Virus record (IMG/VR): IMGVR_UViG_3300025012_000956
Location: 1-64,000 of that record
Length of the DNA: 64,000 bases
Reading direction: 5' to 3' (one strand)
Origin: a virus
Part shown: piece after piece, positions 19,334 through 54,009 of the stretch
Position numbering within the stretch: the stretch's first letter is position 1
How the letters are laid out: each line of letters opens with the position of its first letter
The notes under the pieces: model-generated
What the model was told of the DNA's origin: nothing
Seen by the model: the letters and a program-made list of their open reading frames with translations, nothing else
The model's database searches: none
Made by a program: the position numbers and the translations under genes

Positions 19334-19442
19334 CTTCATAGAAATTCATTTTATATTTATTAATAACAAACCTCACTAAAATAAAAGTTATAAATAAAGT
19401 GTATTTTTTTACACTTTTCCTATATATTATAAAGAACATATT

Positions 19443-19604
19443 ATGAAAACAATTAAAATTGATGATCTATCTTATGAAATACTGAAGAAATACTGTAATA
19501 AGATTGGATTAAAAATAACTAGATTTGTTTCTAATATGATTGTGGAATATATAGAGAAAAAAGATGGAATTAAAATTAATAAGAAAATGTCCGAATCCAA
19601 ATAA
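19443..19604 (+). CDS. small ribbon-helix-helix-like protein (53 aa; below the ORF-track cutoff)
   Basis: MKTIKIDDLSYEILKKYCNKIGLKITRFVSNMIVEYI; paralogues at 43811 and 53565. Confidence 0.7.
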   Translation: MKTIKIDDLSYEILKKYCNKIGLKITRFVSNMIVEYIEKKDGIKINKKMSESK

Positions 19605-20412
19605 TAATCCTAGATGTAAATGTATATTAAATTATACAACTAAAAAGGGATATCTAGGTGCTTTACGTAGAAATACTATGTGTAAAAGTTGTTCAATGAG
19701 TAAATCTCCCAATAAATTAGTCTATGAAAGAATATGTCCTAATCCTAAAGATAATCCAGGTTGTAGAGTAAATTTAAAATATAAAAGTAAACAAAAATAT
19801 TATATAGCATTAGAAAAAAATTCTACATGTCATAGTTGTTGTTCCTATAGTAATGCATATAATATCTGTAGAAAATGTTCAAATGAAACGAAGAAAAAAT
19901 TATCTATTATATTTAAAGGTAGAAAATTTACTGATGAGTGGAAAAATAATATTAGAATTGCAAGATTAAAGATGATCGAGTCTGGAAAAAACTTTGGAAT
20001 GTATGGAAGTAGTATGTATGATAGTTGGTTAATTAAATATGGTAAAGAGGAAGCAGATAAAAAACAGATAGAAAAAATAAAGAAAATCAGATTAAAACTT
20101 CACACGAGATTGAAGGATAAATTTAATTGTATTAGTCCAGCATTCTTTAATCCAGAAGCATGCAAAATAATAGATGAATATGGTAAAACTAACGGCTATT
20201 CATTCCAACATGCTCTAAACGGTGGAGAATTTTATATTAAAGAATTGGGTTATTGGGTAGATGGGTATGATAAAGATAAAAACGTTGTTATAGAAATTGA
20301 TGAAAAGCATCATTTTGATAAAAATGGAAATTTAAGAGAATCTGATAGTAATAGACAGGCCGAAATAGAAAATTTACTATGTTGTAAAAAATTCATTAGA
20401 GTAAAAATTTAA
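19564..20412 (+). CDS. Zn-finger/NUMOD3/Vsr-like putative homing endonuclease
   Basis: Two RxCPNPxxNPxC...CxSC repeats; NPEACKIIDEYGK...HALNGGEF...YWVDGYD...IEIDEKHH. Confidence 0.8.
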   Translation: MELKLIRKCPNPNNNPRCKCILNYTTKKGYLGALRRNTMCKSCSMSKSPNKLVYERICPNPKDNPGCRVNLKYKSKQKYYIALEKNSTCHSCCSYSNAYNICRKCSNETKKKLSIIFKGRKFTDEWKNNIRIARLKMIESGKNFGMYGSSMYDSWLIKYGKEEADKKQIEKIKKIRLKLHTRLKDKFNCISPAFFNPEACKIIDEYGKTNGYSFQHALNGGEFYIKELGYWVDGYDKDKNVVIEIDEKHHFDKNGNLRESDSNRQAEIENLLCCKKFIRVKI

Positions 20413-23400
20413 TGTATACGAATATATATTATGATAGAGAGCGTAATAGAATATCCTTATGGGACGACAAATTTGGATATAGGTCATTCCCATATAAAAA
20501 ATATGCATATATAGAAGATGCTGAAGGTGACTTTTCTACCATCTTTGGTACTAAAGTGAAAAAAATTACAAGTTGGAATAATAATATGGAAGATAAATTA
20601 TATGAATCAGATTTATCTCCAGAGATGAGAACTTTAATAGATGTATATTATGATTCACCTGATAACTTATATCCAGACAATAATATTGTTATATTAGATA
20701 TTGAAGTTGAGACATCTCATTCGCTACCAGATGTATATAAGGCTGAAAATGCTGTTACTGGAATAAGTATTCATGAAAGCAAAAACGATAAATATTATTC
20801 TTTTATATTAGATCTTGATAATAAAATAGATGATAGTAAAATATTTACAGATTCAAAAGGGAATAATGTAATACTTAAAGCTTGTATTTCTGAAAGTCAG
20901 ATGCTTCAGGAATTCATAAATTTGATAGTATTAATTAAACCAACAATATTAACAGGATGGAACATAGAATTCTTTGATATACCATATTTAATTAATAGAA
21001 TAGCAGGTATGTTAGGTGAGGCGATTGTTAAAACATTGTCACCAATAAATATAATTAGATATTCCGAATTTAAAAAAAGATATATTATAGCAGGAATATC
21101 AATTATAGATTATTTAAGTATCTATAAAAAGTTTACATTCTCAGAAGAAGCATCATATAGGTTGGATTCAATAGCTAAGAAAGAAATTGGAAGAGGTAAA
21201 ACTGGATTTGATTGTTCTCTACAAGAATTATATGAAAAGGATATCCATAAATTTATTGAGTATAATATAAATGATGTTGAATTGGTTTTAGAAATAGATA
21301 AAAAGAAAAAATTTATAGATTTAGTAGTAGGTATTTCTCATAAAGGCAGGATTCCATATGAGGATATATTTTATTCTTCTCGTTATCTAGAAGGTGCAAT
21401 TTTATGTGATTTAAAATCTAAAAACTTAGTTGCACCAAATAAACCAAATAGAACTTTAACTAGAGATGTTAGTTTTATAGGTGCATATGTTAAAGATCCA
21501 AAAGTAGGATTTCATGAATGGGTGTTTGATTTAGATTTAACATCTTTATATCCATCAATTATTATGTCACTGAATATATCTCCTGAAACAAAGGTTGGTA
21601 AAATATTAGATTGGAATGCAAATGAATTTACAAGTAGAAAACAGAGAACTTGGAAAGTTTTTAATTTTATAAAAAATGTTGAAGCGGATGTAGATACTAA
21701 AGACTTATGGGATTTTTTAGAAGTTTCTAAATATTATATATCATCAAATGGAATTATCTACCAATCAACGCATCAAAGAGAAGGAGTTATTCCGAAAATA
21801 TTATCTAAGTGGTTCGATGAAAGAGTAGAATATAAAAATCTAATGAAGAAATTTGGTAAAGATAATAAAAAAGACAAGTATGATTTCTATGACAGACTCC
21901 AAAATATACAAAAAGTATTATTAAATTCACTCTATGGTGTACTAGGGTTACCTATTTTTAGATTTTATGATTTAGATAATGCCGCATCTGTTACGGAAAC
22001 AGGTAGATCTATTATAAAATTTTCCGAGAAAAAAGGAGATGAATATTTTAATAATGTTTTGAAAACTAATAATAATTATTGTTTAGCCGGAGACACCGAT
22101 TCTGTTGGAAAAGACAGTGTTATTGATACTAATTTATATGGTAAAATTACATTATTACAGTGTTTTGATAACTTAACTATTAGAGGAGAATGCGATATCT
22201 ATTCCGATATCTCTAACAGAAAATTTATATTCCCAGACAATTTAGTTTTACCCTACTATGATGAAGATAATAAAGAAATATCATATGGTAAGGTGAAATA
22301 TATTGAAAAACACATTATTAACAAGAGAATGTTTAGAATTAAAACAAAATCAGGTAAATTTGTAGACATTACAGAAGATCATTCTTTAATGATTTTAGAT
22401 GAATCGACTAAAAAATTAAAGGAAATCAAACCAAATAAATTAAAAAAAGGTGATAAAATTATTAAATTAAAGTATGACATAGATGAAGTAGACGAGATTA
22501 TAGATTTAGGAATAAAGAAAGAAGTTGTTTTTGATGTGGGCATGGATGATAGTCCACATACGTTTTTTGCAAATAATATTTTAGTACATAATTCAGTATA
22601 TTTCTCAGCATCTCCATTACTTAAATATTTATATCCTAATTTGGATTATTCAAATGAAAAACTTGCTACAGATGCAGTATCTCATATAGTTAGTGATGTA
22701 CAAAAGTATATAAATGATTCATATGATGACTTTGCTAAAGAAATATTAAATATAACGACAGGACATAGATTTAATATAAAACAAGAATTAATTTGTAAGT
22801 CTGGGTTATGGACTGCAAAGAAACGATATGCATTAAAGGTTGTAAATAGAGAAGGAATATTAGTTGATAAATTAGAAGTTAAGGGATTAGATACTGTGAG
22901 GTCTAGTTTTCCTCCAGCATTTAAAGGATTTTTAGAAAAAATGTTAATATCTATATTAGATAAAGAGTCACAGGATAAAATTGATGATGATATAGTTAAG
23001 ATGGAAAACAAATTGAATTCATTTACTATAAACGAAGTATCTAAAAATACCTCAATAACGGATATAGTAAAATATACAGATGAAGTAAGTGGTTATTATG
23101 CAGATAGAATATTTTCTGCTATAAAGAAAGCTACTCCTGCACATGTAAGAGCTGCAATTGCTTTTAATGATTTATTAAAGTATTATGGTTTAGATAATTC
23201 TATTAGTCCGATTAAAAATGGAGAAAAGATTAAGTGGTGTTATCTAAAAAATAATAATTTTGGTTTAGATAAGATTGCATTCAGAGGATATGATGATCCA
23301 AAGGAAATTTTAGATTTTGTAAATACATATATTGATAGGCAACGTATATATGAAAGTGAATTAAAATCTAAAATAGAAAATATATATGCAGCACTTCAGT

Positions 23401-23453
23401 GGAAATTTCCAAGTAGATACAAAAAGTTAGCTAAACAATTTTTCAATATTTAA
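20412..23453 (+). CDS. family B DNA polymerase with contiguous mini-intein
   Basis: DIEVET, TGWNIEFFDIPY, YNINDV, DLTSLYPSII, KVLLNSLYG, GDTD|S, KKRYA. Confidence 0.97.
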   Translation: MYTNIYYDRERNRISLWDDKFGYRSFPYKKYAYIEDAEGDFSTIFGTKVKKITSWNNNMEDKLYESDLSPEMRTLIDVYYDSPDNLYPDNNIVILDIEVETSHSLPDVYKAENAVTGISIHESKNDKYYSFILDLDNKIDDSKIFTDSKGNNVILKACISESQMLQEFINLIVLIKPTILTGWNIEFFDIPYLINRIAGMLGEAIVKTLSPINIIRYSEFKKRYIIAGISIIDYLSIYKKFTFSEEASYRLDSIAKKEIGRGKTGFDCSLQELYEKDIHKFIEYNINDVELVLEIDKKKKFIDLVVGISHKGRIPYEDIFYSSRYLEGAILCDLKSKNLVAPNKPNRTLTRDVSFIGAYVKDPKVGFHEWVFDLDLTSLYPSIIMSLNISPETKVGKILDWNANEFTSRKQRTWKVFNFIKNVEADVDTKDLWDFLEVSKYYISSNGIIYQSTHQREGVIPKILSKWFDERVEYKNLMKKFGKDNKKDKYDFYDRLQNIQKVLLNSLYGVLGLPIFRFYDLDNAASVTETGRSIIKFSEKKGDEYFNNVLKTNNNYCLAGDTDSVGKDSVIDTNLYGKITLLQCFDNLTIRGECDIYSDISNRKFIFPDNLVLPYYDEDNKEISYGKVKYIEKHIINKRMFRIKTKSGKFVDITEDHSLMILDESTKKLKEIKPNKLKKGDKIIKLKYDIDEVDEIIDLGIKKEVVFDVGMDDSPHTFFANNILVHNSVYFSASPLLKYLYPNLDYSNEKLATDAVSHIVSDVQKYINDSYDDFAKEILNITTGHRFNIKQELICKSGLWTAKKRYALKVVNREGILVDKLEVKGLDTVRSSFPPAFKGFLEKMLISILDKESQDKIDDDIVKMENKLNSFTINEVSKNTSITDIVKYTDEVSGYYADRIFSAIKKATPAHVRAAIAFNDLLKYYGLDNSISPIKNGEKIKWCYLKNNNFGLDKIAFRGYDDPKEILDFVNTYIDRQRIYESELKSKIENIYAALQWKFPSRYKKLAKQFFNI
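22101..22592 (+). other. 164-aa cis mini-intein in PolB motif C (GDTD|S), Ser1 / Ser+1
   Basis: SVGKDSVI...ITEDHS...VFDVGM...FFANNILVHN|SVYF; no endonuclease domain. Confidence 0.93.
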
Positions 23454-23465
23454 TCAGAGGTTATA

Positions 23466-24218: not shown

Positions 24219-24226
24219 GGTGTATA

Positions 24227-24853: not shown

Positions 24854-24910
24854 TTTTATACAAAGTGTGATTTTTCTAGATCATACCTATATATATAATT
24901 AAGAAACCTA

Positions 24911-28995: not shown

Positions 28996-29007
28996 GAGGA
29001 AAGTTAT

Positions 29008-30707: not shown

Positions 30708-30717
30708 GAGGTATAAT

Positions 30718-43042: not shown

Positions 43043-43053
43043 GGAGAACCAAA

Positions 43054-43287
43054 ATGTATTATATTAATAAAGTTACAAAAATGCTGGTCAATGCTAAAAA
43101 ATATGATCGTGATGATCCAAAAGTTGAAATATTAACTGAAAATCATTTGGTTACAAAGTCAATAAAAGAAACGCAGTGGTTAGTTATGATATTGGATTCT
43201 GATAAAAACGTAAAAGATGTTATTATATTAGAGGATCAAATATTTAATTCTACCTTTGAACCATTTAAACAGATATTACACGGATAA
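43054..43287 (+). CDS. hypothetical protein
   Basis: AGGAG RBS; 77 aa. Confidence 0.55.
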   Translation: MYYINKVTKMLVNAKKYDRDDPKVEILTENHLVTKSIKETQWLVMILDSDKNVKDVIILEDQIFNSTFEPFKQILHG

Positions 43288-43753: not shown

Positions 43754-43810
43754 TGCTTAAATATTTTATAATTTTTTATAATTTTTTACAATTTCTCTAT
43801 ATTTATTACT

Positions 43811-43981
43811 ATGAAAACAATACAAATAAAAGAAGAAACTCATTCAAAATTTAAAGATTATTGTAAACAGAATAATCTTAAAATCAATAGTTTTATTGAT
43901 ACTATCTTAGATGAACATATGGAGAAATTAATTGAAAAAGAAAAAAGAAGTTTGGACAAGAATTTGCTCAAATCCAAATAA
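43811..43981 (+). CDS. small RHH-like protein (56 aa)
   Basis: MKTIQIKEETHSKFKDYCKQNNLKINSFIDTIL; paralogue of 19443. Confidence 0.7.
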   Translation: MKTIQIKEETHSKFKDYCKQNNLKINSFIDTILDEHMEKLIEKEKRSLDKNLLKSK

Positions 43982-44878
43982 TAATTCTAACTGTAAAAAA
44001 ATAATAAAATGTAAAAAATCTAAATTTTGTACGAATTGTTCTAAAGTAGGTAAAAATAATCCCAATTTTAGGAAGCATCCGTCTAAAGAAACTATAAGTA
44101 AAATGTCTGAGGCCAATAAAGGTAAAAATAATCCATGGTTTGGTAGACATCGTTCTAAAGAGACTATAGAAAAGATAAGTAAAACCAAAACAGGAAAACA
44201 CCATTCAGAAGAAGCTAAATCAAAAATGTCTGAGTCACATAAAGGGAAACACCTTTCAGAAGAACATAAGAGAAACATATCTAAGGTGCGCAAAGGTAGA
44301 CATCATTCTGAAGAAACTAAGAAAAAATATCTGAGGCACGAAAAGGTAAAATTTTATCTGAAGAAACTAAAAAGAAATTATCTGATGTAAAAAAAGGTAA
44401 ATCCGGGAACAGATTAGGAATACACCATTCTGATGAAACTAAAAGAAAACTATCTGTTGCGCAAAAAGGTAAAAAGAGAAAACCATTTTCAGAAGAACAT
44501 AAGAAAAAACTATCTGACGTGGCGAAAGGCAGAGCTTTATCAGATGAACATAAGAGAAAACTAAGAATAGCAGCTATAAAAAGAATAGAAGAAAATAAAT
44601 TAAATGGTAATCAACTGTGTCCTTCTTACAATCCAATAGCATGTAAAACGATAGACGAGTATGGTAAAGCTAACGGATATTCATTCCAGCACGCAGAAAA
44701 CGGTGGAGAATTTCGTATACTAGAACTCGGTTACTGGGTAGACGGATATGATAAGACTCGAAACGTGGTAATAGAATATTATGAGAAAGCACATAAAAAT
44801 AACATCAATAAAGATGAAAGAAGAAAACAAGAAATTATTAATTTTTTAAACTGTGAATTTATAGAAATTAAAGAATGA
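43932..44878 (+). CDS. Zn-finger/multi-NUMOD3/Vsr-like endonuclease, frameshifted at the A6 run 44322-44327
   Basis: [10 protein letters not shown]; many HSEETKxKxS repeats; joins ORF 44519 (NGGEF...YWVDGYD...IEYYEKAH) with one extra A. Confidence 0.8.
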
Positions 44879-44893
44879 TAAACGAGGATTGTT

Positions 44894-45343
44894 ATGACTA
44901 ATTTTATCGGTGAACATAAAATAAAAAGAATAGAAGAATATATACCTACAAAATATAATGATATTGTAGAAGGAAATATTATTTATTTCAAATATAATAA
45001 ATCTGTACACAATTCAAATCCACATGTGCTGGTTGTTAACAAGCAGTGGAACCACAAGTTACATGGCCTGGTAATAGATTATATGTCTTTATTAGAACTT
45101 CATAAACTTAGGGATTTTATTATTTCTGAAGCAGAAGAAGTAGAACCTAATACAAAAGATACACTTGCAGCTTCTATATATGAATTAAATAGATCTTCTC
45201 AGACACCTCTAACTTTTTATGATACAAGATTAAAGCCTTATTTGAAACAATATTTTAAAGATAGATCTATCTATAGAACATATGAGATAACAGAGATAGG
45301 TAATTTACAATTAGTAAAATATAATTTTGGGAAACTAATATGA
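44894..45343 (+). CDS. hypothetical protein, weakly like T4 gp2 DNA-end protector
   Basis: YFKY...P.VLV...HGL..DY...YRTY pattern. Confidence 0.4.
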   Translation: MTNFIGEHKIKRIEEYIPTKYNDIVEGNIIYFKYNKSVHNSNPHVLVVNKQWNHKLHGLVIDYMSLLELHKLRDFIISEAEEVEPNTKDTLAASIYELNRSSQTPLTFYDTRLKPYLKQYFKDRSIYRTYEITEIGNLQLVKYNFGKLI

Positions 45344-45537
45344 AAAAAATAAAACAATTACAATGCAGATATTCTGGAATTAAATCTAATCGATTTTGGA
45401 AAATTATAAATTCTAGTAAAAAAAATAAAGATGAATTATATTCTCTTGGGTGTGTTTTACAAAATGTTGAAGATTTTGTTTTACGTAGAATAGAGGAAGC
45501 AAATCCAGGTTCAGTTAAACCTGATCAATATTATTAA
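45340..45537 (+). CDS. hypothetical protein
   Basis: Coupled small ORF. Confidence 0.5.
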   Translation: MKKIKQLQCRYSGIKSNRFWKIINSSKKNKDELYSLGCVLQNVEDFVLRRIEEANPGSVKPDQYY

Positions 45538-45539
45538 AG

Positions 45540-46217
45540 ATGGAGAACAAAATGGAAACAATAAGTTATGCAGTATTAGTAAAAGATGAAGTTGAAGAAA
45601 TTTCTAGACTTATAAAATTGCTGAGTCAATATAAAAATGGTGATGAAATAGTCGTAGTTCAAGATATAAGTACGGAAACTGAAAATACGAAGAAAGTAAA
45701 AGAGGTGTTAACAAATTTAATTTTAACAAGTAAGATTACAGATTTGTCATGGTATAAATTTGATGGAGATTATTCTAATATTAAAAACTTTTTAATATCT
45801 AAATGTGTGAATAATTGGATATTTAATATAGATGCAGATGAATATCCAGATGTTTCTTTATTAGACAGTTTACATTCTATTTTAGAATCAAATTCTGGCG
45901 TAGAATTATTTTGGGTACCCAGAATAAATATTGTAAAAGGATTAACAGAACAACATATAAAGGAGTGGCGATGGGTAATGAGTAATATAGAAGGGGTTGC
46001 TGATGAACAAGTTGTGAATTTTCCAGATTATCAAGGTAGAATATTCCGAAATAATAAACAAATCAAATGGAAATATAGGGTACATGAAGTTATAATCGGA
46101 AATACAAATTATGTGCAGTTACCACCTGAACGAGAGTTTGCACTGTGGCACATAAAAGACATACAGCGACAGGTTTTTCAAAACGAATATTATAAAACAA
46201 TAAAAAGGATTGAATAA
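45540..46217 (+). CDS. GT2 glycosyltransferase
   Basis: WIFNIDADE, VPRIN, PDYQGRIF, VHE. Confidence 0.88.
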   Translation: MENKMETISYAVLVKDEVEEISRLIKLLSQYKNGDEIVVVQDISTETENTKKVKEVLTNLILTSKITDLSWYKFDGDYSNIKNFLISKCVNNWIFNIDADEYPDVSLLDSLHSILESNSGVELFWVPRINIVKGLTEQHIKEWRWVMSNIEGVADEQVVNFPDYQGRIFRNNKQIKWKYRVHEVIIGNTNYVQLPPEREFALWHIKDIQRQVFQNEYYKTIKRIE

Positions 46218-46452
46218 TATGACTAAATTTTATTACATTAAACTTCTCAAATTAAAAATAGATCTTCTTGAAAATTATGATGTTGAATTGGATAAGATAG
46301 AGGGAAGATCGTGTGGGGAACTACTAAAAATGAAAAGTGATTTTTTAATGATTCATATACCAATTGATATCAATTATAAATTACTTGAAGATCCTAGTTT
46401 AGCTAGAAATGAAGTTATAATAAATGATAAATTAGTTCGTTTAAATGAATAA
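46210..46452 (+). CDS. hypothetical protein
   Basis: Coupled small ORF. Confidence 0.45.
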   Translation: MNNMTKFYYIKLLKLKIDLLENYDVELDKIEGRSCGELLKMKSDFLMIHIPIDINYKLLEDPSLARNEVIINDKLVRLNE

Positions 46453-47401
46453 TAAAAAAATACTTTTTATAACAGAAAATAATTTTGTTGGTAAAGTTCC
46501 TAGGAATTATCTTAATATGAGGACTGAATATAGCTGGATGCATTCATTAGATGCTTATCATGTGCCCTTATTCGGTACCTGGAATTTAGATAAAGAAGAT
46601 AATTATGATTTGGGTATAATTATTATTCCAAAAAAAATTGAAAAGATGAATAAAGAATTAGATTGGATATCTTTATTTAGAAAATATTGTAAAAAGGTTG
46701 CAATTATGCAAGAAGGTCCTGGGGATTTTTTTCACACCTATTCTATAGAGAATCAGTTTTTTTATTACAATTTGCTTTTAGATTCTGATTTTTTATTATG
46801 TCATAATTCTACTGATGTTCCTTACTATAAAGGGCTGACGGGAAAAAATACATACCCATTACAAAGTTTAATGATTACAGATAATATTAAACCACGAGAA
46901 AAAGAAACCAAGGTTATGATAGGTGGCACATTTTGTTCTTGGTATTCAGGATTTGATTCTTATATTGTAGCACGCGAATTTAGCTGTCCTATATTTGCCC
47001 CATCTATGGGTAGAAAACAAGCTCAAGAAGATTATATTTCTGGCCTAACTTATTTGCCATATATGATTTGGGCTGATTGGATTTATATATTATCGGAATT
47101 TAAATATGCAGTACATTTGATGAGAACATATGCAGCTGGTACGTTTTCACTTAATTGTGCATTTTTATCCATACCTTGTATAGGATATAATTCAATAGAT
47201 ACACAGAATATATTGCATACCAGATTGTCAGTTGATGAAGGTGATATAGAAGCAGCTAAATATTTAGCTGTAAAACTTAGAGATGATAAAGAATTTTATG
47301 AATATCAATCTAGGAAATGTAAAGAGAATTATAATTTATTTTATAGTGAAGAAATATTTCTTCGTAAGTTTGATGAAATTCTTATGAGTGAAAATGTTTA
47401 A
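46445..47401 (+). CDS. putative GT-B glycosyltransferase
   Basis: AAGTFSLNCA...IPCIG C-terminal GT-B-like segment; island context. Confidence 0.55.
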   Translation: MNNKKILFITENNFVGKVPRNYLNMRTEYSWMHSLDAYHVPLFGTWNLDKEDNYDLGIIIIPKKIEKMNKELDWISLFRKYCKKVAIMQEGPGDFFHTYSIENQFFYYNLLLDSDFLLCHNSTDVPYYKGLTGKNTYPLQSLMITDNIKPREKETKVMIGGTFCSWYSGFDSYIVAREFSCPIFAPSMGRKQAQEDYISGLTYLPYMIWADWIYILSEFKYAVHLMRTYAAGTFSLNCAFLSIPCIGYNSIDTQNILHTRLSVDEGDIEAAKYLAVKLRDDKEFYEYQSRKCKENYNLFYSEEIFLRKFDEILMSENV

Positions 47402-47445
47402 ATTTTTGTTTTACTTTTTTTGTTTTACCTATATTTATATATAAG

Positions 47446-47601
47446 ATGGGAAGAAAGAAACTATATATAACACCCAAGGAGATTAAATTGGCCAACACAA
47501 AAAAATCTCTTAAATATTATTATAAAAATAGGACTACAATAAATAAAAAAAGAATGAAATTGTATTATGAAAGAAAAGATATTTCGAAGAAATTGTCCTA
47601 A
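47446..47601 (+). CDS. small basic protein (51 aa) preceding an endonuclease
   Basis: MGRKKLYITPKEIKLANTKKSLKYYYKNR...; same position in the cassette as the RHH ORFs. Confidence 0.55.
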   Translation: MGRKKLYITPKEIKLANTKKSLKYYYKNRTTINKKRMKLYYERKDISKKLS

Positions 47602-48183
47602 TCCAGACAATAATCCAAAATGTAAAAAGAAAATTGTATATAAAAATAAAAGATATTATATAAATGGACTAAAGAAAAAAACTGTATGTAATAGTTGCCA
47701 TTGCTATGGTATACATCCTTCTGAAGAAACAATAAAAAAATAAGCAAAGGTAATTTGGGTGAAAATAATGGAATGTATGGAAAACACCAAAGTATAGAAA
47801 CTATAGAAAAAATTCGCGCTCGAGCTAAAAAAAGGTTTGAGGATCCAAAAGAAAGAGAAAAACAGAGACTTACAGCTATAAAAAGAATAGAAAATAATTT
47901 ATCAATTGGTGGTCAAATTCAACCATGGTTTAATCCCAGGGGTTGTCAAATAATAGATAACTATGGAAATAAAAATGGCTATAAATTTAAACATGAAATG
48001 AACGGAGGCGAAATTTGTATCAGTGGATATTTTCCAGATGGATTAGACGAAGAAAGAAAAACAATAATTGAAATAGATGAGAAACACCACTATGATACAC
48101 ATGGTAATTTAAAAAAGAAAGATGTTGATAGACAGAAATATCTTGAAGGTTTAGGTTATAAGTTTATTAGAATTAAAATATGA
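47567..48183 (+). CDS. Zn-finger/NUMOD3/Vsr-like endonuclease, frameshifted at the A7 run 47734-47740
   Basis: RNCPNPDNNPKC...; joins ORF 47755 (NGGE...FPDGLD...IEIDEKHH) with one extra A. Confidence 0.78.
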
Positions 48184-48608
48184 AAAAAAATAAAAAAATA
48201 ATAGGCGTAGTGGCTTCTAGCTTCGACATCTTCCACCCAGGCCACATAATGATGCTCAAAGATGCCAAAACCATGTGCACATATTTGATTGCGCTGGTAC
48301 AAATTAATCCCGCTTCGGAAAGACCTGATAAAAATAAACCAATTCAGACAATAGAGGAAAGACAGATCATGTTGAAGGGCATTAAATATGTTGATGAAAT
48401 TTACGTATATACAACTGAGGAACAATTATTAGGTCTATTGAAAGTTTTAAATCCTGATGTCCGAATAATGGGTACTGATTGGAAAGGTAAACAATTTACT
48501 GGTTATGAACTGAATATTCCTATATATTGGCATGAACGCAATGCCCATTCATTTTCGACAACATCATTAAGACGTAGAATATGGGAAGAAGAAAATAAAA
48601 AAGGTTAA
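48180..48608 (+). CDS. cytidylyltransferase (TagD/RfaE-like)
   Basis: SSFDIFHPGH (HxGH), KP....ER, G.DW, STTSLR. Confidence 0.9.
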   Translation: MKKNKKIIGVVASSFDIFHPGHIMMLKDAKTMCTYLIALVQINPASERPDKNKPIQTIEERQIMLKGIKYVDEIYVYTTEEQLLGLLKVLNPDVRIMGTDWKGKQFTGYELNIPIYWHERNAHSFSTTSLRRRIWEEENKKG

Positions 48609-48610
48609 AT

Positions 48611-49462
48611 ATGGTTATAAGTATTATACATAATCTATATAAAAGAAATCCCTATATATTAGAAACCGTTAAGTTAAATATAAAGGCACTTGTTGATGCA
48701 GGTGTAGATTTTCAATATATTTTATTTAATGATAGTGGTGATAGAGAAATAGAAAATGATTTAGAAGATTATTTATCATATTCAATTGCATATGCTGGGT
48801 ACAAGTTGAAATATTTTTATAGTCCTATAAACTACGGAATGCATATGTGTGCAGGAGGGTATGTTGGAGCTGAAAAAGAAGGATTAGTTAGAGGAGATAT
48901 TATACACAACATCGGTCAAGATGATGTAATGACTTCTTTATTATATTCTAATGCTTTAAAATATTTTAAAACAGAACCTGATTTATACTTTGTAAGTTCA
49001 AATGGGTATAGAGTTGATGAATCATTGAGGTTTTTGGGAATCATGACTGACTTAAGATTTAATTTAGATTTTAGATATCCGTTAGATGCATTTAAATTGT
49101 GGTTTGGGATGGCACCTCCAGAATATAAAGTAACGCGCGCAAATAATTATTTTTTAGCAAGTGGTACCATGTATAGAAAAGAATTACATAATTTAATAGG
49201 ATATCCAGATTTAGATAATTTTACAGGCGCAGCGGATTTTGAATATTGGGCAAGGATATTATTTAATGGTTATAAAGGTCACTATACCCCTGAGCCAAGT
49301 TGGTATTATAGAATGTCTAAATATTCTGTTGGTGATGAAATAGTGGATGGTTTAATAAATAGAGGAACTATGGAGAAACCTGGACACCAACAATTAGCTG
49401 TTCAGAGAATAAAAGAACATTTTGCTAAGTTAGTAGAAGAACAAAAAGAAAGATTTATATGA
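48611..49462 (+). CDS. GT2-like glycosyltransferase
   Basis: FNDSG, GQDD, ADFEYWAR, YYR. Confidence 0.8.
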   Translation: MVISIIHNLYKRNPYILETVKLNIKALVDAGVDFQYILFNDSGDREIENDLEDYLSYSIAYAGYKLKYFYSPINYGMHMCAGGYVGAEKEGLVRGDIIHNIGQDDVMTSLLYSNALKYFKTEPDLYFVSSNGYRVDESLRFLGIMTDLRFNLDFRYPLDAFKLWFGMAPPEYKVTRANNYFLASGTMYRKELHNLIGYPDLDNFTGAADFEYWARILFNGYKGHYTPEPSWYYRMSKYSVGDEIVDGLINRGTMEKPGHQQLAVQRIKEHFAKLVEEQKERFI

Positions 49463-50275
49463 AAGTATCAGTTATACATAATTTATTTAGAAGAAATCCT
49501 TATGTAAATGATAGTGTGATATTAAATTTAATAGCACTCAGAAACGCACATGTAGAATTTGAATATATTTTATTTAACGACCATGGTGATATTGAAATAA
49601 AAGAAGATGTTAAGGAATATACTGATCTTCCTAACATTAAATATATCTATTCTAATATTAATTATGGAAATCGGATGTGTAGTGGTGGTTGGGTAGGTGC
49701 ACTTACATACATAACAGGAGATTTAATTCATAATATTGGTCAAGATGATGTATTCTCTAGTTTATTTTATGAGATATTTAGAAGCAGAACCTGATCTATA
49801 TTTTATAAGTCAAAATGCTTATAAAGTATCAGAAACATATGATACATTCGGTCTTATGTTGGATGAGAATATATATTTTGATTATAGATTTCCACGTGGT
49901 GCACTTATTCAATGGCTGGGCATATATCCTCCTCATTTTAAAGTTCAAAGGTTATCAAATTATTTCTTAGCACCAGGTACAATGTATAAAAGAAAATTAC
50001 ATGATTTAATAGGACCACCAGATATAGAAACATTCCTCGCGGCAGCAGATCTAGAATATTGGTTGAGAATTTTATATAATAATTATAAAGGGCATTATAT
50101 TTCAACACCTACTTGGTTTTATCGAATGTCAAATTATTCTACTCATAATGAGATAATCGATGGAGTAGTAAACGATGGAGGATTTGAAAACCCTGGACAC
50201 GAACAGGCTGCGGGAAATAGAGTACAGGATAAATATACAAAACTAGTTGAAGAAAATAAGGAGAAATTTATATGA
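49459..50275 (+). pseudogene. tandem paralogue of 48611, frameshifted near 49770-49775
   Basis: ORFs 49459-49794 and 49736-50275 align end-to-end with 48611; about 10 nt missing relative to the paralogue. Confidence 0.75.
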
Positions 50276-50302
50276 ATTATCTTATAACAGGGTTATTATA
50301 AA

Positions 50303-51247
50303 ATGAATAATATAATATGTACGGGGGGTGTGGGATTTATAGGGTCTCATTTAGTAGAAAGGTTATTAAAAGAAACAGATGCTCCAAAAATATATATTGT
50401 CGATAATTTGGTACGGACACATTCGTTGAGGAATATTCAGTATTTACTATTTGATCCAAGAGTTGAATTCATTTATGGTGATATTTCCACAATTAAATAT
50501 GAAACCTATTTTAATCCACCTGACATAGATTGGGTTTTTCATTTAGCTGCAACTCGTATCAACAGATGTAATAGTTATAATTTAGAAGGACATCAATATA
50601 TTGCAACAGGTGGAGCAAGATTAATAGATTGGGTAAGTAAATACCATATCAAAATATTTTTTGCGAGTAGTGCAAGTGTGTATCAATCACCAAAAACGTT
50701 GCCTATTAAAGAAGAAGATCCTTGCAATCCACACACAATATATGGGGCTGGAAAATTATATACTGAAAATTTATTGAGAAGTTATCATATATTATATGGC
50801 CTAGAGTATGTAATAAATCGATTTTTTAGCGTATATGGTGAACGAATTGATTCCGAAGGAAGTTATACTGAAATAATATTTAATTTTTTTAATCAAATAA
50901 AAAAAGGAAAAACTGACATAACTTTATATGGAAATCCAGATGAAAAGATTTTAGATTTAATTTATGTAGATGACGTCGTCAATGCTATTTTATTGACTAT
51001 GAAAAAATCAAAAAATGATGCATTTAATGTTTCTACTCAGACTGGGATAACACTCACAGAGTTAGTAAGCTTAATAGAAAGTATAACTAACACTAGATTG
51101 AATAAAATAATATTACCAGAGAAAAGAACAGATATAGAGTTAAAACGAATAGGTGATGTTTATAAATTAAAAAATTTAGGTTGGCAATTAAATACTACAA
51201 TAGAATCTGGATTAACTAAAACGTGGAATTGGATAAAAAATTTATGA
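50303..51247 (+). CDS. NAD-dependent nucleotide-sugar epimerase/dehydratase
   Basis: TGGVGFIGS, HLAA, SSASVY, YGAGK. Confidence 0.92.
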   Translation: MNNIICTGGVGFIGSHLVERLLKETDAPKIYIVDNLVRTHSLRNIQYLLFDPRVEFIYGDISTIKYETYFNPPDIDWVFHLAATRINRCNSYNLEGHQYIATGGARLIDWVSKYHIKIFFASSASVYQSPKTLPIKEEDPCNPHTIYGAGKLYTENLLRSYHILYGLEYVINRFFSVYGERIDSEGSYTEIIFNFFNQIKKGKTDITLYGNPDEKILDLIYVDDVVNAILLTMKKSKNDAFNVSTQTGITLTELVSLIESITNTRLNKIILPEKRTDIELKRIGDVYKLKNLGWQLNTTIESGLTKTWNWIKNL

Positions 51248-52090
51248 AAAAGAAAAAATTTTTTAGGATATGTCCTAAGTGTGGAAATAAAGTTTGGCAT
51301 ACTCAAAAAAACCATAGAAACAGTGCTGATAAAAATAAAAAAATATGTAATAAATGTTCAACCCGAGGAGAAAAAAACGGATTTTATAATAAAAAACATT
51401 CTATAGAAACAATTGAAAAGATATCCATGAATACTAAGTTGGCTATGAAGAAACCTGAAGTTTTTGAAAAAATTAAAAAATATCACGATGATATTAAAAA
51501 TAAAACTTATAAGGAAAGATATGGTAAAGAAAAATCAATAGAAATTAGAAATAAACAAAGTAAATCAATTAAGGGAATGTTCAGTGGAGATAAACATTAT
51601 CAATTTGGAAAAAAACAAAGTAGAGAAATTATTGAAAATAGAATATTAAAAAATACTGGTAAAAAAAGAACTAAGGAGCAAATAGAAAATATAAGAAATT
51701 CATTGGTTGGAAGAACACTTTCTAGGGAACATATAAAGCGTCTTCGTTTGGCTGTCATAAAAAGAATAGAAGATAGACATGGTACCATATTTCCAAATTA
51801 TAATATAGAAGCATGCAAAATCATAGAAGAATATGGTAAAGAAAATGGCTATAATTTACAGCATGCTGAAAATGGTGGAGAATACTACATCAAAGAACTT
51901 GGATATTTTTTAGATGGTTATGATAAAAATAAAAATGTTGTGATAGAATATTATGAAAGACATCACTATACGCTTGGTAATTTAAGAGAAAAAGATTTAA
52001 AAAGAAATTATTCAACAACTTGGTTGTAAGTTCATTAGAATAAATGCGTTTGATAAAAATAATTTAAAGATAGAGGTAATACATGGATAA
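51244..52090 (+). CDS. Zn-finger/NUMOD3/Vsr-like endonuclease with frameshifted C-terminus
   Basis: CPKC...CNKC; HAENGGEY...FLDGYD...IEYYERHH; tail EIIQQLGCKFIRINAFDK lies in another frame after about 52003. Confidence 0.78.
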
Positions 52091-52541
52091 GATTTTACCA
52101 CCTTGGAATGAATTAAAAAACATAGTTGGTAAAAGATTTAATGATTTTTGTATTATTAGAGGAGACGAATTTATTGAATGGGGTGATGATGTCTGGGTGG
52201 GTTATTTTTGTTTAATTGATGGAAGTGGTGGATTGGAAATAGGTAACCATGTATCTATTAGTTCAGGAGTTCACATATATACACATTCTAGTGTAGATTT
52301 TAGAAGACTAAATTTAAATAAAGATCCTATAAATGGTACACACATTAAAAGAGCTCCAGTCAAAATAGGAAATTTTGTCCAAATCGGGGCAAATGCTGTT
52401 GTTCTTCCCGGGATAACAATAGGTAACAACGTGATTATTGGAGCATTGTCATTAGTTAACAAAGATATACCAGACAACTGTGTTGCATTTGGTATACCAG
52501 CTAAAATAAAGGAAACAAATAATAGAGAAACTAAACTGTAA
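52083..52541 (+). CDS. hexapeptide-repeat acyltransferase
   Basis: LEIGNHVSIS, VKIGNFVQIGANAVVLPGITIG, GIPAK. Confidence 0.9.
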   Translation: MDKILPPWNELKNIVGKRFNDFCIIRGDEFIEWGDDVWVGYFCLIDGSGGLEIGNHVSISSGVHIYTHSSVDFRRLNLNKDPINGTHIKRAPVKIGNFVQIGANAVVLPGITIGNNVIIGALSLVNKDIPDNCVAFGIPAKIKETNNRETKL

Positions 52542-52599
52542 ATTTATACGAATGAATGCATTTGATAAAAATAATATTAAAATCGAAAGGGTAAATTAG
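52513..52599 (+). pseudogene. C-terminal scar of a deleted Vsr-like endonuclease gene
   Basis: Alternate frame reads KQIIEKLNCKFIRMNAFDKNNIKIERVN*, closely matching the 52004-52090 tail. Confidence 0.7.
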
Positions 52600-52600
52600 T

Positions 52601-53512
52601 ATGTTGCCTAAAGTGATTCTTTGTGGATTTGGTAGATGGGGAAAAATTTGGTTTAACACAATAAAAAAATCAGGTTATCAATGTGTAGGAATAGTAGACC
52701 CAAAAATACTCATGACAGAGATAGAAGGAGTTACTGTTTATAATCGTAGTACTGAGGTACAAAATAGAGAATATACCCATGTTATCTTAGCAACACCACC
52801 AGAAACTCATCTTAAATTATTTCAATATTTTTCACAAAGAATAAATCCGAGAAATATTCTAGTTGAAAAACCTATGGGAATAAGCAGTTCTGAAGCAAGT
52901 AAGATGATAAATTGTTTTCCTGGATTAGTATTTCTTTATGATCCAATTACTCACTATATTAAAAAAAATATGACTATTATAGGAGAACCACTTTTATATA
53001 AATCTACGCGAGCTAGTATGGGTCCAACAATTAGAAGTGAAATTTCTGTTGTTGAGGATTATTTAATACATGATATTAGTATTTTCATATGGTTATTTTG
53101 CAGAAAAATAAAAATTATTAATGCTTTTAAAACTAATAAATTTGTTAATGATTCAGTAAAAAATGATACTGTGATTGTTGTAGGTGAATCAAATAACCTT
53201 ATAATTGATATGTTTAGCTCGTGGATATATCCTATTAAAGAACGGTCAACTTATATTATAGGGACACGTGGTTCATTTATATGGAAAAATGATGAACTAT
53301 ACTTTGATGATACTCACTATAATTTTGACAATATTTCTATAGATAGATATAAGTTAATAGTTGGTATCAACAATAAAATAATAATAGATAAAAAATACAG
53401 TACTTTAGAACTTCAATTGAAACATTTCATAGAAGATAAGAAGATTAATATGAATATTTTAGATATATGGGATACTATTGATGATATAAATATAAAATGT
53501 AATTTTTTGTAA
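52601..53512 (+). CDS. Gfo/Idh/MocA-family NAD-dependent oxidoreductase
   Basis: GFGRWG, ATPPETH, LVEKPM, IHDI. Confidence 0.9.
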   Translation: MLPKVILCGFGRWGKIWFNTIKKSGYQCVGIVDPKILMTEIEGVTVYNRSTEVQNREYTHVILATPPETHLKLFQYFSQRINPRNILVEKPMGISSSEASKMINCFPGLVFLYDPITHYIKKNMTIIGEPLLYKSTRASMGPTIRSEISVVEDYLIHDISIFIWLFCRKIKIINAFKTNKFVNDSVKNDTVIVVGESNNLIIDMFSSWIYPIKERSTYIIGTRGSFIWKNDELYFDDTHYNFDNISIDRYKLIVGINNKIIIDKKYSTLELQLKHFIEDKKINMNILDIWDTIDDINIKCNFL

Positions 53513-53564
53513 AATACTGGTTACATTTTGAAAAATCTCTATATTTATATATAAAGGAGTTAAT

Positions 53565-53726
53565 ATGAAATATAAATCAAGACCGATTAGAATAGATGAA
53601 GAAGTTTATATTAAGTTAAGAGATTATTGTGATATAAATTCTTATAAAATTTCTAGATGGGTTAGTAGAATTTTATTAGAGAAATTAAATGATTTACAAA
53701 AGAAAGTGTCCAAACCTAAAAAATAA
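53565..53726 (+). CDS. small RHH-like protein (53 aa)
   Basis: AGGAG RBS; PIRIDEEVYIKLRDYCDINSYKISRWVSRIL. Confidence 0.7.
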   Translation: MKYKSRPIRIDEEVYIKLRDYCDINSYKISRWVSRILLEKLNDLQKKVSKPKK

Positions 53727-54009
53727 TCCAAACTGTAGGGAGATTATTAGATATATAAGTGAAGGTGGATATTATTACTCGATAAAAAATAATTCTTTCT
53801 GTACTAGTTGTAGACACTTTGGAAAACCTGTAGGATTTAGTGGACACAAACACAAAAAATCTACAATAATTAAAATGAAAAAACCAAAGACACAAGAACA
53901 CAAAAATAAAATAGGATTAGCATTAAAAGGTAGAAAATTTTCTAAAGAACACATTAAGAATTTAAAAATTGGATCTGATAAAAGAATAGGAAAAAGTAGA
54001 GAAATGTGA
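53689..54009 (+). pseudogene. Zn-finger/NUMOD3 endonuclease remnant lacking the nuclease domain
   Basis: RKCPNLKNNPNC...CTSC, NUMOD3-like repeats, early stop. Confidence 0.65.

What the first reader, a model, noticed from the sequence alone, without database searches (positions are those of the whole stretch)
19420..54009. Repeated two-gene mobile cassette: promoter, tiny RHH-like ORF, overlapping CPNP Zn-finger/NUMOD3/Vsr-like endonuclease
Seen: four dispersed copies (19420-20412, 43797-44878, 47429-48183, 53539-54009) share a T-rich tract, a CTATAT(A/T)T(T/A)AT motif and a 51-56-aa ORF missed by the ORF track. Three of these ORFs are paralogous (I.I.....xK.YC....KI). Each small ORF's stop falls within the RxCPNPxNNPxC codons of the downstream gene. 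Three copies, plus 51244, share the C-terminal 'C.II..YG..NGY...H..NGGE.....GY..DG.D....IE..E..H' nuclease domain. Inference: a family of intergenic homing elements carrying their own repressor or inhibitor, resembling C-protein or antitoxin control. I do not know this described for free-standing homing endonucleases.
Basis: partly seen in the sequence, partly recalled or inferred. Interest (0 to 1): 0.75.

Follow-up and report, generated by a model that had tools for sequence, protein, structure and literature searches.

The report
Homing endonuclease genes with private regulators
An uncultured phage carries five copies of a small mobile cassette in which a tiny DNA-binding-protein gene, with its own promoter and its own repeated upstream sites, overlaps the start of a homing endonuclease gene, and the same layout recurs in many other phage sequences with several unrelated nuclease types.

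Summary
The 74.5-kb viral contig has five cassettes, four in the window and one at 65012-65903. Each has upstream repeats, a CTATAT(A/T)T(A/T) motif and a 48-56-aa ORF. In all five, a Zn-finger/NUMOD3/Vsr-like endonuclease gene starts 118-124 nt into that ORF in the +1 frame.

Four small ORFs are ribbon-helix-helix-like by sequence (PHROG Arc-like repressor, PDB 2kel). The fifth (47446-47601) belongs to a different, unannotated family with 772 clusters.

In other viral contigs both kinds of small ORF sit in the same overlapping +1 position. They precede GIY-YIG, HNH, LAGLIDADG, TnsA-like and Vsr-like endonuclease genes. The unannotated family is under purifying selection (median dN/dS 0.18). 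Tandem direct repeats lie upstream and differ between cassettes. In one comparison the repeats and the small ORF are exchanged together, while the promoter core and the endonuclease gene stay homologous.

Best reading, at about 0.5: a portable autoregulator, analogous to restriction-modification C proteins or IS605 Arc. No binding or expression was shown. The direct-inhibitor (antitoxin-like) reading is disfavoured. My searches found no description in print, except a passing note of Arc genes next to homing endonuclease genes.

The parts
19396..19417 (.). c1 candidate operator: 8-nt inverted repeat (arms 19396-19403 and 19410-19417) just upstream of the promoter-like motif. A + strand TATAAATA lies at 19389.
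   Evidence: Sequence read; TATAAATA position. Its function is inferred.
19420..19430 (+). c1 promoter-like motif CTATATATTAT, 12 nt before the small-ORF ATG
19443..19604 (+). c1 small ORF, 53 aa, RHH-like
   Evidence: PHROG Arc-like repressor E 3.5e-3. Pfam DUF6290 E 0.019, below cut-off. Family profile hits PDB 2kel E 8.1e-5.
19564..20412 (+). c1 homing endonuclease gene, 282 aa. It is the only intact copy, with two Cys4 fingers, NUMOD3-like repeats and a C-terminal Vsr/DUF559-like nuclease. It starts 121 nt into the small ORF in the +1 frame.
43760..43799 (.). c2 candidate operator: three to four tandem 10-bp units, T-rich with a TATAA/TACAA core
43797..43807 (+). c2 promoter-like motif CTATATTTATT, 3 nt before the ATG, with no Shine-Dalgarno sequence
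43811..43981 (+). c2 small ORF, 56 aa, RHH-like
   Evidence: PHROG Arc-like repressor E 7.2e-6. Pfam ParG E 0.024, below cut-off. Paralogue of c1, E 4.9e-5.
43932..44878 (+). c2 endonuclease gene, broken: 43932-44390 (TTG start, Zn finger plus NUMOD3 repeats) and 44519-44878 (nuclease domain, GTG)
   Evidence: NUMOD3 E 3.1e-20.
47403..47428 (.). c3 candidate operator: two direct copies of T-run plus GTTTTAC, period 14, ending at the promoter-like motif
47429..47439 (+). c3 promoter-like motif CTATATTTATA. Its reverse complement contains TATAAATA.
47446..47601 (+). c3 small ORF, 51 aa. It belongs to an unannotated family (MGRKKKY..T.EE....YY.KN....YY) and is not RHH-like.
   Evidence: no family; family; dN/dS
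47567..48183 (+). c3 endonuclease gene, broken: 47567-47743 and 47755-48183 (nuclease domain)
   Evidence: DUF559 E 4.1e-6.
51223..52029 (+). Sixth endonuclease copy without a small ORF. It has a GTG start that overlaps the 3' end of the upstream gene (50303-51247) by 25 nt.
53539..53549 (+). c4 promoter-like motif CTATATTTATA, followed by AAAGGAG and the ATG
53565..53726 (+). c4 small ORF, 53 aa, RHH-like
   Evidence: PHROG Arc-like repressor E 0.018. Paralogue of c1, E 3.9e-4.
53689..54009 (+). c4 endonuclease remnant, 106 aa (finger plus NUMOD3-like part). The nuclease domain is lost.

Best explanation
Each cassette is a self-contained, mobile transcription unit. From 5' to 3' it holds short tandem (or inverted) repeats, an AT-rich promoter element (TATATTTAT-like), and a gene for a ~40-residue DNA-binding domain. 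That domain is either ribbon-helix-helix or the unannotated 'GRKKKY...YY.KN' type. The 3' end of this gene overlaps the start of a homing endonuclease gene in the +1 frame.

I propose that the small protein binds the repeats at its own promoter and autoregulates transcription of itself and the endonuclease, most likely by repression. The endonuclease would be translated at a low level from a start codon buried in the small ORF. In the RHH type, the Shine-Dalgarno-like GAGA/GGAG comes from the Glu-Lys codons at the end of helix 2. Translation may be coupled to ribosomes finishing the small ORF.

The result would be a portable controller that keeps a potentially harmful nuclease at a set dose in whichever phage the cassette invades.

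Shown here: the anatomy, its recurrence, the coding constraint, the sequence similarity to RHH repressors, the enrichment of repeats, and the joint exchange of repeats and small ORF.

Inferred: DNA binding, the sign of regulation, the transcription start, and translational coupling.
For: Anatomy in the contig:
- 5 of 5 cassettes have the same order and the +1 overlap, with offsets of 118-124 nt.

RHH similarity:
- PHROG Arc-like repressor: E 7.2e-6 (c2), 7.2e-5 (c5), 3.5e-3 (c1), 0.018 (c4).
- A relative, L084, reaches Pfam RepB-RCR_reg at 21.6 bits against a cut-off of 21.
- The family profile hits PDB 2kel at E 8.1e-5.

The unannotated c3-type family:
- 73 viral loci hold it, 46 of them distinct.
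- The downstream ORF is in the +1 frame in 42 of 42 cases.
- The first ATG of that frame is at offset 121 in 28 of 46.
- Codons 1-40 have a median dN/dS of 0.18, and 63 of 63 usable pairs are below 1.

Genes served:
- Pfam on the 42 downstream ORFs: NUMOD3 23, GIY-YIG 13, NUMOD1 5, I-HmuI NUMOD-like 5, HNH 2, LAGLIDADG 1, TnsA-like 1.
- RHH-type ORFs precede GIY-YIG (L203) and TnsA-like (L228) genes in the same geometry.

Repeats:
- A direct repeat of 10 nt or more (at most 1 mismatch, period 8-22) occurs in 33 of 46 c3-type upstream regions.
- The same is true of 15% of 176 other ORF upstream regions in the same loci, and of 33% of the 69 AT-rich ones among them.
- Against shuffles the figures are 66% of 56 regions versus 18%.
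- The repeat cores differ between cassettes and follow the protein subfamilies.

Joint exchange:
- L203 (RHH) and L143/L144/L153 (c3-type) share the promoter core (-27 to +2) and the endonuclease gene from about +121 onward.
- They differ in both the upstream repeats and the body of the small ORF.

Precedents read:
- Overlap with upstream ORFs and reinitiation by scanning were proposed for T4 segC, segF, mobA and mobC, and I-TevI represses its own promoter (PMC2988022, section 13 and passages).
- C proteins and the omega RHH repressor (PMC3874152, passages).
- Arc represses IS605 promoters (preprint abstract).
Against: - There is no experimental or expression evidence. No RNA run holds the stretch.
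- The fold of either small protein was not modelled.
- RHH hits for the window's own copies are below Pfam cut-offs.
- The c3-type family resembles no known DNA-binding domain.
- Repeat cores and proteins could co-vary simply because they are inherited together. The loci are related, so the counts are not independent. The exchange example is a single case, and its short promoter match has E 6e-4.
- T-rich repeats could instead be curved-DNA or UP-like promoter elements.
- The orientation of the promoter element is uncertain. Its reverse complement contains TATAAATA (the T4 late-promoter consensus, recalled) at c3, c4, c5, 14270 and 17037.
- Most relatives of this nuclease (45 of 49 distinct loci) do without any small ORF.
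- 28 of 33 distinct RHH relatives are not followed by an overlapping gene.
- 3 of 42 c3-type ORFs precede non-nuclease genes: a methylase, DnaB and TerL.
Confidence: 0.5

Rival explanations
1. The small protein is a working partner of the endonuclease rather than a regulator. It would be an extra DNA-binding or targeting module acting with the enzyme, or a shield for the phage's own copy of the target.
For: - Rare in-frame fusions of the c3-type domain to nuclease-type proteins exist. Among longer proteins there are 5 hits in 8000 scored candidates, including GIY-YIG-like, HNH-like and Endonuclease_7 proteins.
- 7 of the best 150 library hits are longer than 100 aa, and some carry tandem copies.
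- Homing endonucleases are modular and commonly add small DNA-binding units (NUMODs; PMC3239194 passages).
Against: - The same two small-ORF families serve at least five unrelated nuclease folds with different targets. A specific protein-protein partnership is therefore unlikely.
- The repeats sit at the cassette's own promoter, not in a neighbouring target gene.
- Fused forms are rare against at least 296 stand-alone small proteins, and each is a single-member cluster that could be an assembly error.
- Some small ORFs precede non-nuclease genes.
Confidence: 0.17
2. The small ORF and the endonuclease are joined by programmed +1 frameshifting or transcriptional slippage, which would give the enzyme an optional N-terminal DNA-binding domain.
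For: - The downstream gene is in the +1 frame in 5 of 5 cassettes in the contig and in 42 of 42 c3-type cases.
- Two of the five endonuclease ORFs in the contig have only TTG starts.
- Rare fused proteins exist.
Against: - There is no conserved slippery or stimulatory sequence.
- The overlap varies from 11 to more than 90 nt, and its sequence is that of whichever endonuclease follows.
- The +1 frame is closed by a stop 0-7 codons before the endonuclease start in the five cassettes of the contig. It opens at offset 112 or 97 in 27 of 46 c3-type loci.
- An ATG at a conserved place (offset 121 or 97), and in the RHH type a GAGA/GGAG 7-9 nt upstream, point to independent initiation.
- A shift at the small-ORF stop would skip the first zinc ligand of the endonuclease.
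Confidence: 0.08
3. The small ORF acts only in cis as an upstream ORF that throttles or couples endonuclease translation, and its peptide has no function of its own.
For: - The overlapping geometry resembles the T4 seg and mob genes that overlap upstream ORFs (PMC2988022 section 13).
- The copy at 51223 overlaps an ordinary upstream gene instead.
Against: - There is strong purifying selection on the amino-acid sequence (median dN/dS 0.18).
- Two defined protein families occupy the position, one with RHH repressor similarity.
- The c3-type family has 772 clusters at 50% identity.
- The domain also occurs in tandem in longer proteins.
Confidence: 0.05
4. The small protein neutralises the nuclease directly, as an antitoxin or immunity protein would.
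For: - Many RHH proteins are antitoxins. There is a weak PHROG hit to HicB-like antitoxin for c2 (E 0.047).
- The order 'small gene, then harmful nuclease' resembles toxin-antitoxin operons.
Against: - After the ~40-residue domain the tails are only 7-18 residues. They are not conserved and are dictated by the endonuclease codons read in another frame.
- The same families accompany unrelated nuclease folds.
- Small ORFs persist beside broken or truncated endonuclease genes in 4 of 5 cassettes.
Confidence: 0.05

Closest known systems
Controller (C) proteins of type II restriction-modification systems, e.g. C.PvuII
   Same: - A small DNA-binding autoregulator gene lies just upstream of, and overlaps, the gene of a potentially lethal endonuclease.
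- The operator sits at its own promoter.
- Specificity groups are defined by operator sequence (PMC3874152 passages; PMC2997769 passages).
- Natural C-endonuclease fusions are reported (PMC3850674, title and start of abstract only), which parallels the rare fusions seen here.
   Different: - C proteins are helix-turn-helix proteins. Here the proteins are RHH-like or of an unannotated family.
- There is no methyltransferase whose head start has to be secured.
- The host element is a phage homing endonuclease gene, not a restriction-modification system.
- Whether activation, repression or both occur here is unknown.
Arc (RHH) repressor of IS605-family transposons (bioRxiv 10.64898/2026.09.24.754181)
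   Same: - An RHH microprotein encoded inside a selfish element binds the element's own promoter.
- It represses the genes for the element's nuclease and transposase.
- It is often missed by annotation.
- The authors note Arc genes adjacent to homing endonuclease genes (abstract and passages).
   Different: - That work concerns bacterial insertion sequences, not free-standing phage endonuclease genes.
- In the passages I saw there is no fixed overlapping +1 geometry, no second non-RHH family, and no exchange between nuclease families.
- I did not test relatedness of those Arc proteins to the ORFs here.
I-TevI transcriptional autorepression in phage T4
   Same: Homing endonuclease expression is held down by a protein binding an operator that overlaps the gene's own promoter (PMC2988022 passages).
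   Different: In T4 the endonuclease itself is the repressor. Here a separate small gene would do the job.
T4 segC, segF, mobA and mobC overlapping upstream ORFs
   Same: The endonuclease start codon lies 11-24 bp inside the preceding ORF and has a poor initiation region. Low-level reinitiation by scanning ribosomes was proposed (PMC2988022 section 13, read whole). The copy at 51223 in the window looks like this.
   Different: In T4 the upstream ORF is a resident phage gene. Here it is a dedicated small gene that travels with the endonuclease gene and has its own promoter.
EDxHD homing endonucleases (I-Bth0305I, Hef)
   Same: N-terminal NUMOD-type DNA-binding repeats and a C-terminal Vsr-like nuclease. 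They are free-standing or sit in fractured genes of environmental phages (PMC3239194 passages).
   Different: A 46-sequence profile of the nuclease domain gave no PDB hit at E up to 10, so no match to any solved chain was detected. Only one copy reaches Pfam DUF559.

Membership tests
Ribbon-helix-helix (Arc/MetJ/CopG) superfamily: small ORFs c1, c2, c4, c5 | Significant sequence or profile match to RHH families | tested here: met
   - PHROG Arc-like repressor families: E 7.2e-6 (c2), 7.2e-5 (c5), 3.5e-3 (c1), 0.018 (c4).
- The family profile A6 hits PDB 2kel_A at E 8.1e-5 and ParG 1p94 at E 0.68.
- A relative, L084, scores 21.6 bits on Pfam RepB-RCR_reg against a cut-off of 21.
- The window's own copies stay below Pfam cut-offs.
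Ribbon-helix-helix (Arc/MetJ/CopG) superfamily: small ORFs c1, c2, c4, c5 | Beta-strand, helix, helix fold forming an intertwined dimer | not testable with these tools
The Atlas holds no model.
Ribbon-helix-helix (Arc/MetJ/CopG) superfamily: small ORFs c1, c2, c4, c5 | Binds repeated operator sites | not testable with these tools
   Only candidate repeats were seen.
Ribbon-helix-helix superfamily: small ORF c3 (47446-47601) | Sequence or profile match to RHH families | tested here: not met
   - No Pfam or PHROG family.
- hhalign against the RHH-type alignment gives probability 0.1%.
- No PDB hit at E up to 10.
EDxHD (I-Bth0305I-type) homing endonucleases | N-terminal NUMOD DNA-binding repeats plus a C-terminal nuclease domain | tested here: met
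   NUMOD3 at E 3.1e-20 (c2 fragment) and 1.4e-5 (51223). The nuclease domain is at the C-terminus.
EDxHD (I-Bth0305I-type) homing endonucleases | Vsr-like catalytic domain with the composite E, D, x, H, D residues | tested here: inconclusive
   - Nearly invariant E45, D56/D59, E67/E70, H73 and D84 occur in that order in 46 sequences.
- The c3 copy hits Pfam DUF559 at E 4.1e-6 and MTES_1575.
- The profile finds no PDB chain at E up to 10, and no structure could be modelled.
Free-standing homing endonuclease gene (mobile) | Present or absent between conserved flanking genes in related genomes | tested here: met
   In L245 the helicase and the DNA polymerase are 63 nt apart, against 1079 nt in the window. 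This is 1 of 1 related loci that kept the helicase neighbour, out of 25 examined.
Free-standing homing endonuclease gene (mobile) | Site-specific cleavage of the empty allele | not testable with these tools
   Needs an enzyme assay.
C-protein-type controller of a nuclease operon (functional class) | Small regulator gene upstream of, and overlapping, the nuclease gene in one unit | tested here: met
C-protein-type controller of a nuclease operon (functional class) | Helix-turn-helix C-protein fold and C-box operators | tested here: not met
   No HTH or C-protein family was hit. The repeats are direct with periods of 10-14 nt, not C-box palindromes. This is an analogue, not a member.
C-protein-type controller of a nuclease operon (functional class) | Regulator binds its own promoter and sets nuclease expression | not testable with these tools
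   Inferred only.

The most novel reading that the evidence does not exclude
Phage homing endonuclease genes of at least five catalytic families share a previously unrecognised control layer. It is a portable 'controller' microgene with a private tandem-repeat operator, and it comes in two interchangeable forms. One form is a new ~40-residue DNA-binding domain family (772 clusters at 50% identity, no Pfam or PHROG entry) that also occurs in tandem in longer proteins. If true, this is the homing-endonuclease counterpart of restriction-modification C proteins, and a natural library of tiny, mutually orthogonal repressor-operator pairs.
Probability: 0.4. Interest if true: 0.8.

Novelty: new variant of a known kind. 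Interest (0 to 1): 0.7.

Why it matters
How free-standing homing endonuclease genes are kept in check is an acknowledged gap. [quoted passage not shown]

A dedicated microgene that travels with the nuclease gene would explain how such genes can land between essential genes of many phages without harm. It would also add a regulatory module to the known parts of these elements.

The finding defines a large unannotated small-protein family with a testable function. It supplies many natural pairs of tiny protein and short repeat, which could serve as orthogonal switches if binding is confirmed.

It also gives gene callers a rule for finding about 50-codon genes that are routinely missed.

Tried and rejected
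The Atlas holds no model for c3 or for P0012.

First motif scan. My degenerate pattern gave 9 matches against 5.5 expected and missed two cassettes. I replaced it with exact words.

The search for related loci with the six-sequence RHH alignment returned an error because no stretch was conserved enough. I repeated it with five closer sequences.

Expression. No RNA holder was listed for 43700-48300.

Laying contigs of four DNA runs on 43000-54300 gave short pieces. The joints mostly had sides of 20-24 letters, between paralogous nuclease copies. I draw nothing from them.

tblastn of P0012 and of the c2 small ORF against 50,697 phage records found no match at E up to 0.01. With 50-residue queries, and with the low-complexity filter on, this is weak evidence.

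Rfam found no family in the window.

The nuclease profiles A2 and A8 gave no meaningful PDB hit apart from the I-TevI NUMOD-type region (E 0.38).

Rejected readings:
- The c3 ORF as a diverged RHH.
- The promoter motif as cassette-specific.
- A canonical sigma-70 -35/-10 pair. The spacings I counted by eye do not fit. This was not computed.

The tally '32 nuclease-like, 7 unclear, 3 other' rests partly on my own regular expressions, not only on Pfam.

Rows dropped:
- Identical sequences were collapsed before all counts.
- 2 of 44 distinct c3-type loci had no downstream ORF of 50 aa or more and are not in the 42.
- 4 of 67 dN/dS pairs had unusable dS values.

Full report
WHAT IS IN THE WINDOW

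A fifth lies beyond the window at 65012-65903.

Each cassette has, in order:
- a T-rich stretch with short repeats;
- the word CTATATTTAT, or CTATATATTAT in c1;
- a small ORF of 48-56 codons, starting 3-29 nt after that word;
- an endonuclease ORF that starts inside the small ORF.

The endonuclease start lies 121, 121, 121, 124 and 118 nt after the small-ORF start. It is in the +1 frame in all five, with overlaps of 41, 50, 35, 38 and 29 nt.

Only the c1 endonuclease (19564-20412, 282 aa) is intact. Those of c2, c3 and c5 are split by frame breaks, and c4 has lost its nuclease domain. All five small ORFs are open. Because they are about five times shorter than the endonuclease genes, this alone proves little.

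A sixth nuclease copy (51223-52029) has no small ORF. Its GTG start instead overlaps the end of the preceding gene by 25 nt.

THE ENDONUCLEASE

The endonuclease has Cys4 fingers, NUMOD3 repeats (E 3.1e-20 for the c2 fragment) and a C-terminal domain. In the c3 copy that domain reaches Pfam DUF559 (E 4.1e-6).

In 46 sequences the nearly invariant residues E45, D56/D59, E67/E70, H73 and D84 appear in the order of the composite EDxHD motif described for I-Bth0305I (PMC3239194 passages). However, neither profile found any solved nuclease. I therefore call the domain Vsr/DUF559-like and leave family membership open.

THE SMALL ORFS ARE TWO DIFFERENT PROTEINS

c1, c2 and c4 are paralogues (E 4.9e-5 and 3.9e-4 within the contig). 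Together with c5 they match Arc-like repressor families of PHROGs, with E 7.2e-6 (c2), 7.2e-5 (c5), 3.5e-3 (c1) and 0.018 (c4).

A five-sequence profile hits PDB 2kel at E 8.1e-5 and ParG at E 0.68. One relative passes the Pfam cut-off for RepB-RCR_reg. By sequence these are ribbon-helix-helix proteins. The fold could not be modelled.

c3 is different:
- It has no Pfam or PHROG family.
- There is no PDB hit at E up to 10.
- hhalign against the RHH group gives probability 0.1%.

It belongs to a family with the pattern MGRKKKY.T.EE....YY.KN....YY. That family has 296 members at E up to 1e-3 among 414 near-length candidates of the 90% clustered collection, all unnamed. It has 772 representatives at 50% identity, of which 96 score at E up to 1e-10.

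Among the best 150 hits, 7 are longer than 100 aa. Some carry the unit two or three times.

THE SAME LAYOUT ELSEWHERE

Starting from the nuclease, 105 viral stretches encode relatives, of which 80 were kept and 49 are distinct. Only four have such a small ORF: two of the RHH type (L066, L084) and two of the c3 type (L076, L078). All four are in the +1 frame. The small ORF is therefore optional for this nuclease.

Starting from the c3-type ORF, there are 73 loci, of which 46 are distinct:
- The next ORF of 50 aa or more is in the +1 frame in 42 of 42 cases.
- The first ATG of that frame is at offset 121 in 28 of 46, and at offset 97 in 6.
- That ATG is built into the conserved Tyr-Tyr/His-Glu/Asp codons.

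Pfam on those 42 proteins gives NUMOD3 23, GIY-YIG 13, NUMOD1 5, I-HmuI NUMOD-like 5, HNH 2, LAGLIDADG 1 and TnsA-like 1. It also gives one DNA methylase, one DnaB and one large terminase. My tally, partly from my own patterns, is 32 nuclease-like, 7 unclear and 3 other.

Starting from the RHH type, there are 107 relatives, of which 80 were kept and 33 are distinct. Five have an overlapping +1 gene:
- a GIY-YIG gene (L203);
- a TnsA-like gene (L228);
- a NUMOD-type gene (L236, below cut-offs);
- the Vsr-like type (L169);
- one glycosyltransferase (L165).

The other 28 form a stand-alone RHH family.

IS THE SMALL ORF A REAL GENE?

For the c3-type family, codon-position entropy is 0.89, 0.73 and 1.13. 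Codons 1-40, which lie before the overlap, give a median dN/dS of 0.18, and all 63 usable pairs are below 1. The pairs are not independent, but the signal is uniform.

For the RHH type in the window the evidence is weaker. It consists of the retained RHH pattern at 24-40% identity and the family matches.

REPEATS AND PROMOTER

Upstream of c3-type ORFs there are typically two direct copies of a T-run followed by a 5-8-nt core. The period is 11, 12 or 14 nt, and the second copy ends 13-30 nt before the ATG. The TATATTTAT-like element follows.

A repeat of 10 nt or more is found in 33 of 46 such regions. It is found in 15% of 176 other ORF upstream regions in the same loci, and in 33% of the 69 AT-rich ones among them. 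Against shuffles the figures are 66% of 56 regions versus 18%.

The cores differ between cassettes and follow the protein subfamilies. The conserved block begins at the first repeat, as seen when L156 is compared with L148, L151 and L159.

RHH-type cassettes tend to have period-10 repeats (c2, L084, L203, L228). c1 has an inverted repeat instead.

In most cassettes only 3-7 nt separate the element from the ATG and there is no Shine-Dalgarno sequence. This suggests a leaderless or nearly leaderless message, which is an inference.

The element is not specific to these cassettes. The five other + strand copies in the contig precede other genes, at least two of them nuclease-type by Pfam. Its reverse complement contains TATAAATA at c3, c4, c5, 14270 and 17037. 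The active strand is therefore unproven.

MODULAR EXCHANGE

L203 (RHH type) and L143, L144 and L153 (c3 type) carry homologous GIY-YIG genes. DNA similarity runs from about +121 onward (67-77% identity) and across the promoter core (-27 to +2; 82% over 33 nt, E 6e-4). It is absent from the small-ORF body and from the repeats.

L236 against L142 and L161 shows the same downstream boundary.

The repeats and the small ORF, although separated by a conserved promoter core, have therefore been exchanged together. This is what a matched operator-regulator pair predicts. It is one clear case, not a statistic.

The tails of the small ORFs after residue ~41 are simply the endonuclease codons read in another frame. 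L203 and L143 share a tail despite having unrelated bodies.

MOBILITY

In the closest related contig (L245, polymerase 58% identical) the helicase gene ends 63 nt before the polymerase gene. In the window the gap is 1079 nt and holds c1. None of the other 24 loci examined had the helicase upstream.

HOW IT MOST LIKELY WORKS

I favour a portable autoregulated unit, at about 0.5. The small protein binds the repeats at its own promoter and limits transcription of itself and the endonuclease. The endonuclease is translated weakly from a start buried in the small ORF, possibly by ribosomes that have just finished that ORF.

Three precedents bear on this:
- Scanning reinitiation was proposed for the T4 seg and mob genes that overlap upstream ORFs by 11-24 bp (PMC2988022 section 13).
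- For PvuII, the overlapping C and R genes proved translationally independent (PMC2997769 abstract passage). Coupling here is therefore open.
- Controller proteins, the omega RHH repressor and IS605 Arc show the same logic in other selfish nuclease modules.

The rivals are weaker for the following reasons:
- Programmed frameshifting is unlikely. No conserved shift site exists, and the +1 frame is closed just upstream of the start.
- A peptide-independent upstream ORF conflicts with the purifying selection.
- A direct inhibitor conflicts with the variable tails and with service to unrelated nuclease folds.
- A working partnership on DNA remains possible because rare fusions exist.

NOVELTY

Five searches found no description of a dedicated regulator gene for free-standing homing endonuclease genes. 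The T4 review lists the endonuclease itself, RNA hairpins and overlap with resident genes as controls.

The 2026 Arc preprint notes Arc genes next to homing endonuclease genes without following this up.

I rate the finding a new variant of a known kind of control. It includes one unannotated protein family.

Noticed in passing
window 11039-12200: The same promoter-like word (11039) precedes a 45-aa ORF (11071-11208). After a 140-nt gap comes a 283-aa protein with a DUF559/MTES_1575-type nuclease end (11349-12200). This may be a third kind of leader ORF or a broken N-terminus.
   Followed up: partly
window 14260-15315 and 17027-17669: CTATATTTATAA also precedes a 338-aa NUMOD3 protein (14299-15315) and a 195-aa protein with no Pfam family (17082-17669). 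Both have ordinary leaders with Shine-Dalgarno sequences and no small ORF.
   Followed up: partly
window 47439, 53549, 14270, 17037; contig 65022 (minus strand): The reverse complement of the promoter-like element is a perfect TATAAATA, the T4 late-promoter consensus as I recall it. It points away from the cassette. Which strand is active is unknown.
   Followed up: no
P0170, P0249, P0193, P0251, P0228 (library proteins): The c3-type unit occurs two or three times in tandem at the N-terminus of longer proteins. Several have a composition unlike phage proteins. The unit may be a general small DNA-binding module.
   Followed up: no
L171-L241 (viral contigs): A well-conserved stand-alone RHH family ending in KKD(I/L)YGE has its own direct repeats upstream (e.g. 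CTACC x2, CATACTT x2-3) and no overlapping downstream gene.
   Followed up: partly
window 20412-23453: The DNA polymerase ORF appears to carry an in-frame insertion around its DTDS motif (Cys ... His-Asn-Ser). By eye it looks like a mini-intein.
   Followed up: no
contig 70384-74465 (outside the window): A cluster of nine tRNA genes (aragorn) is interspersed with two further endonuclease-like genes, at about 70.5 kb (GIY-YIG-like by eye) and 73.9 kb (HNH-like by eye). Each lies behind CTATATTTATTA.
   Followed up: partly
window 44162-44571: Contigs of two soil metagenome runs skip 408 nt inside the NUMOD3 repeat region of the broken c2 endonuclease (side 37 letters). This may be a variant with fewer repeats.
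   Followed up: no
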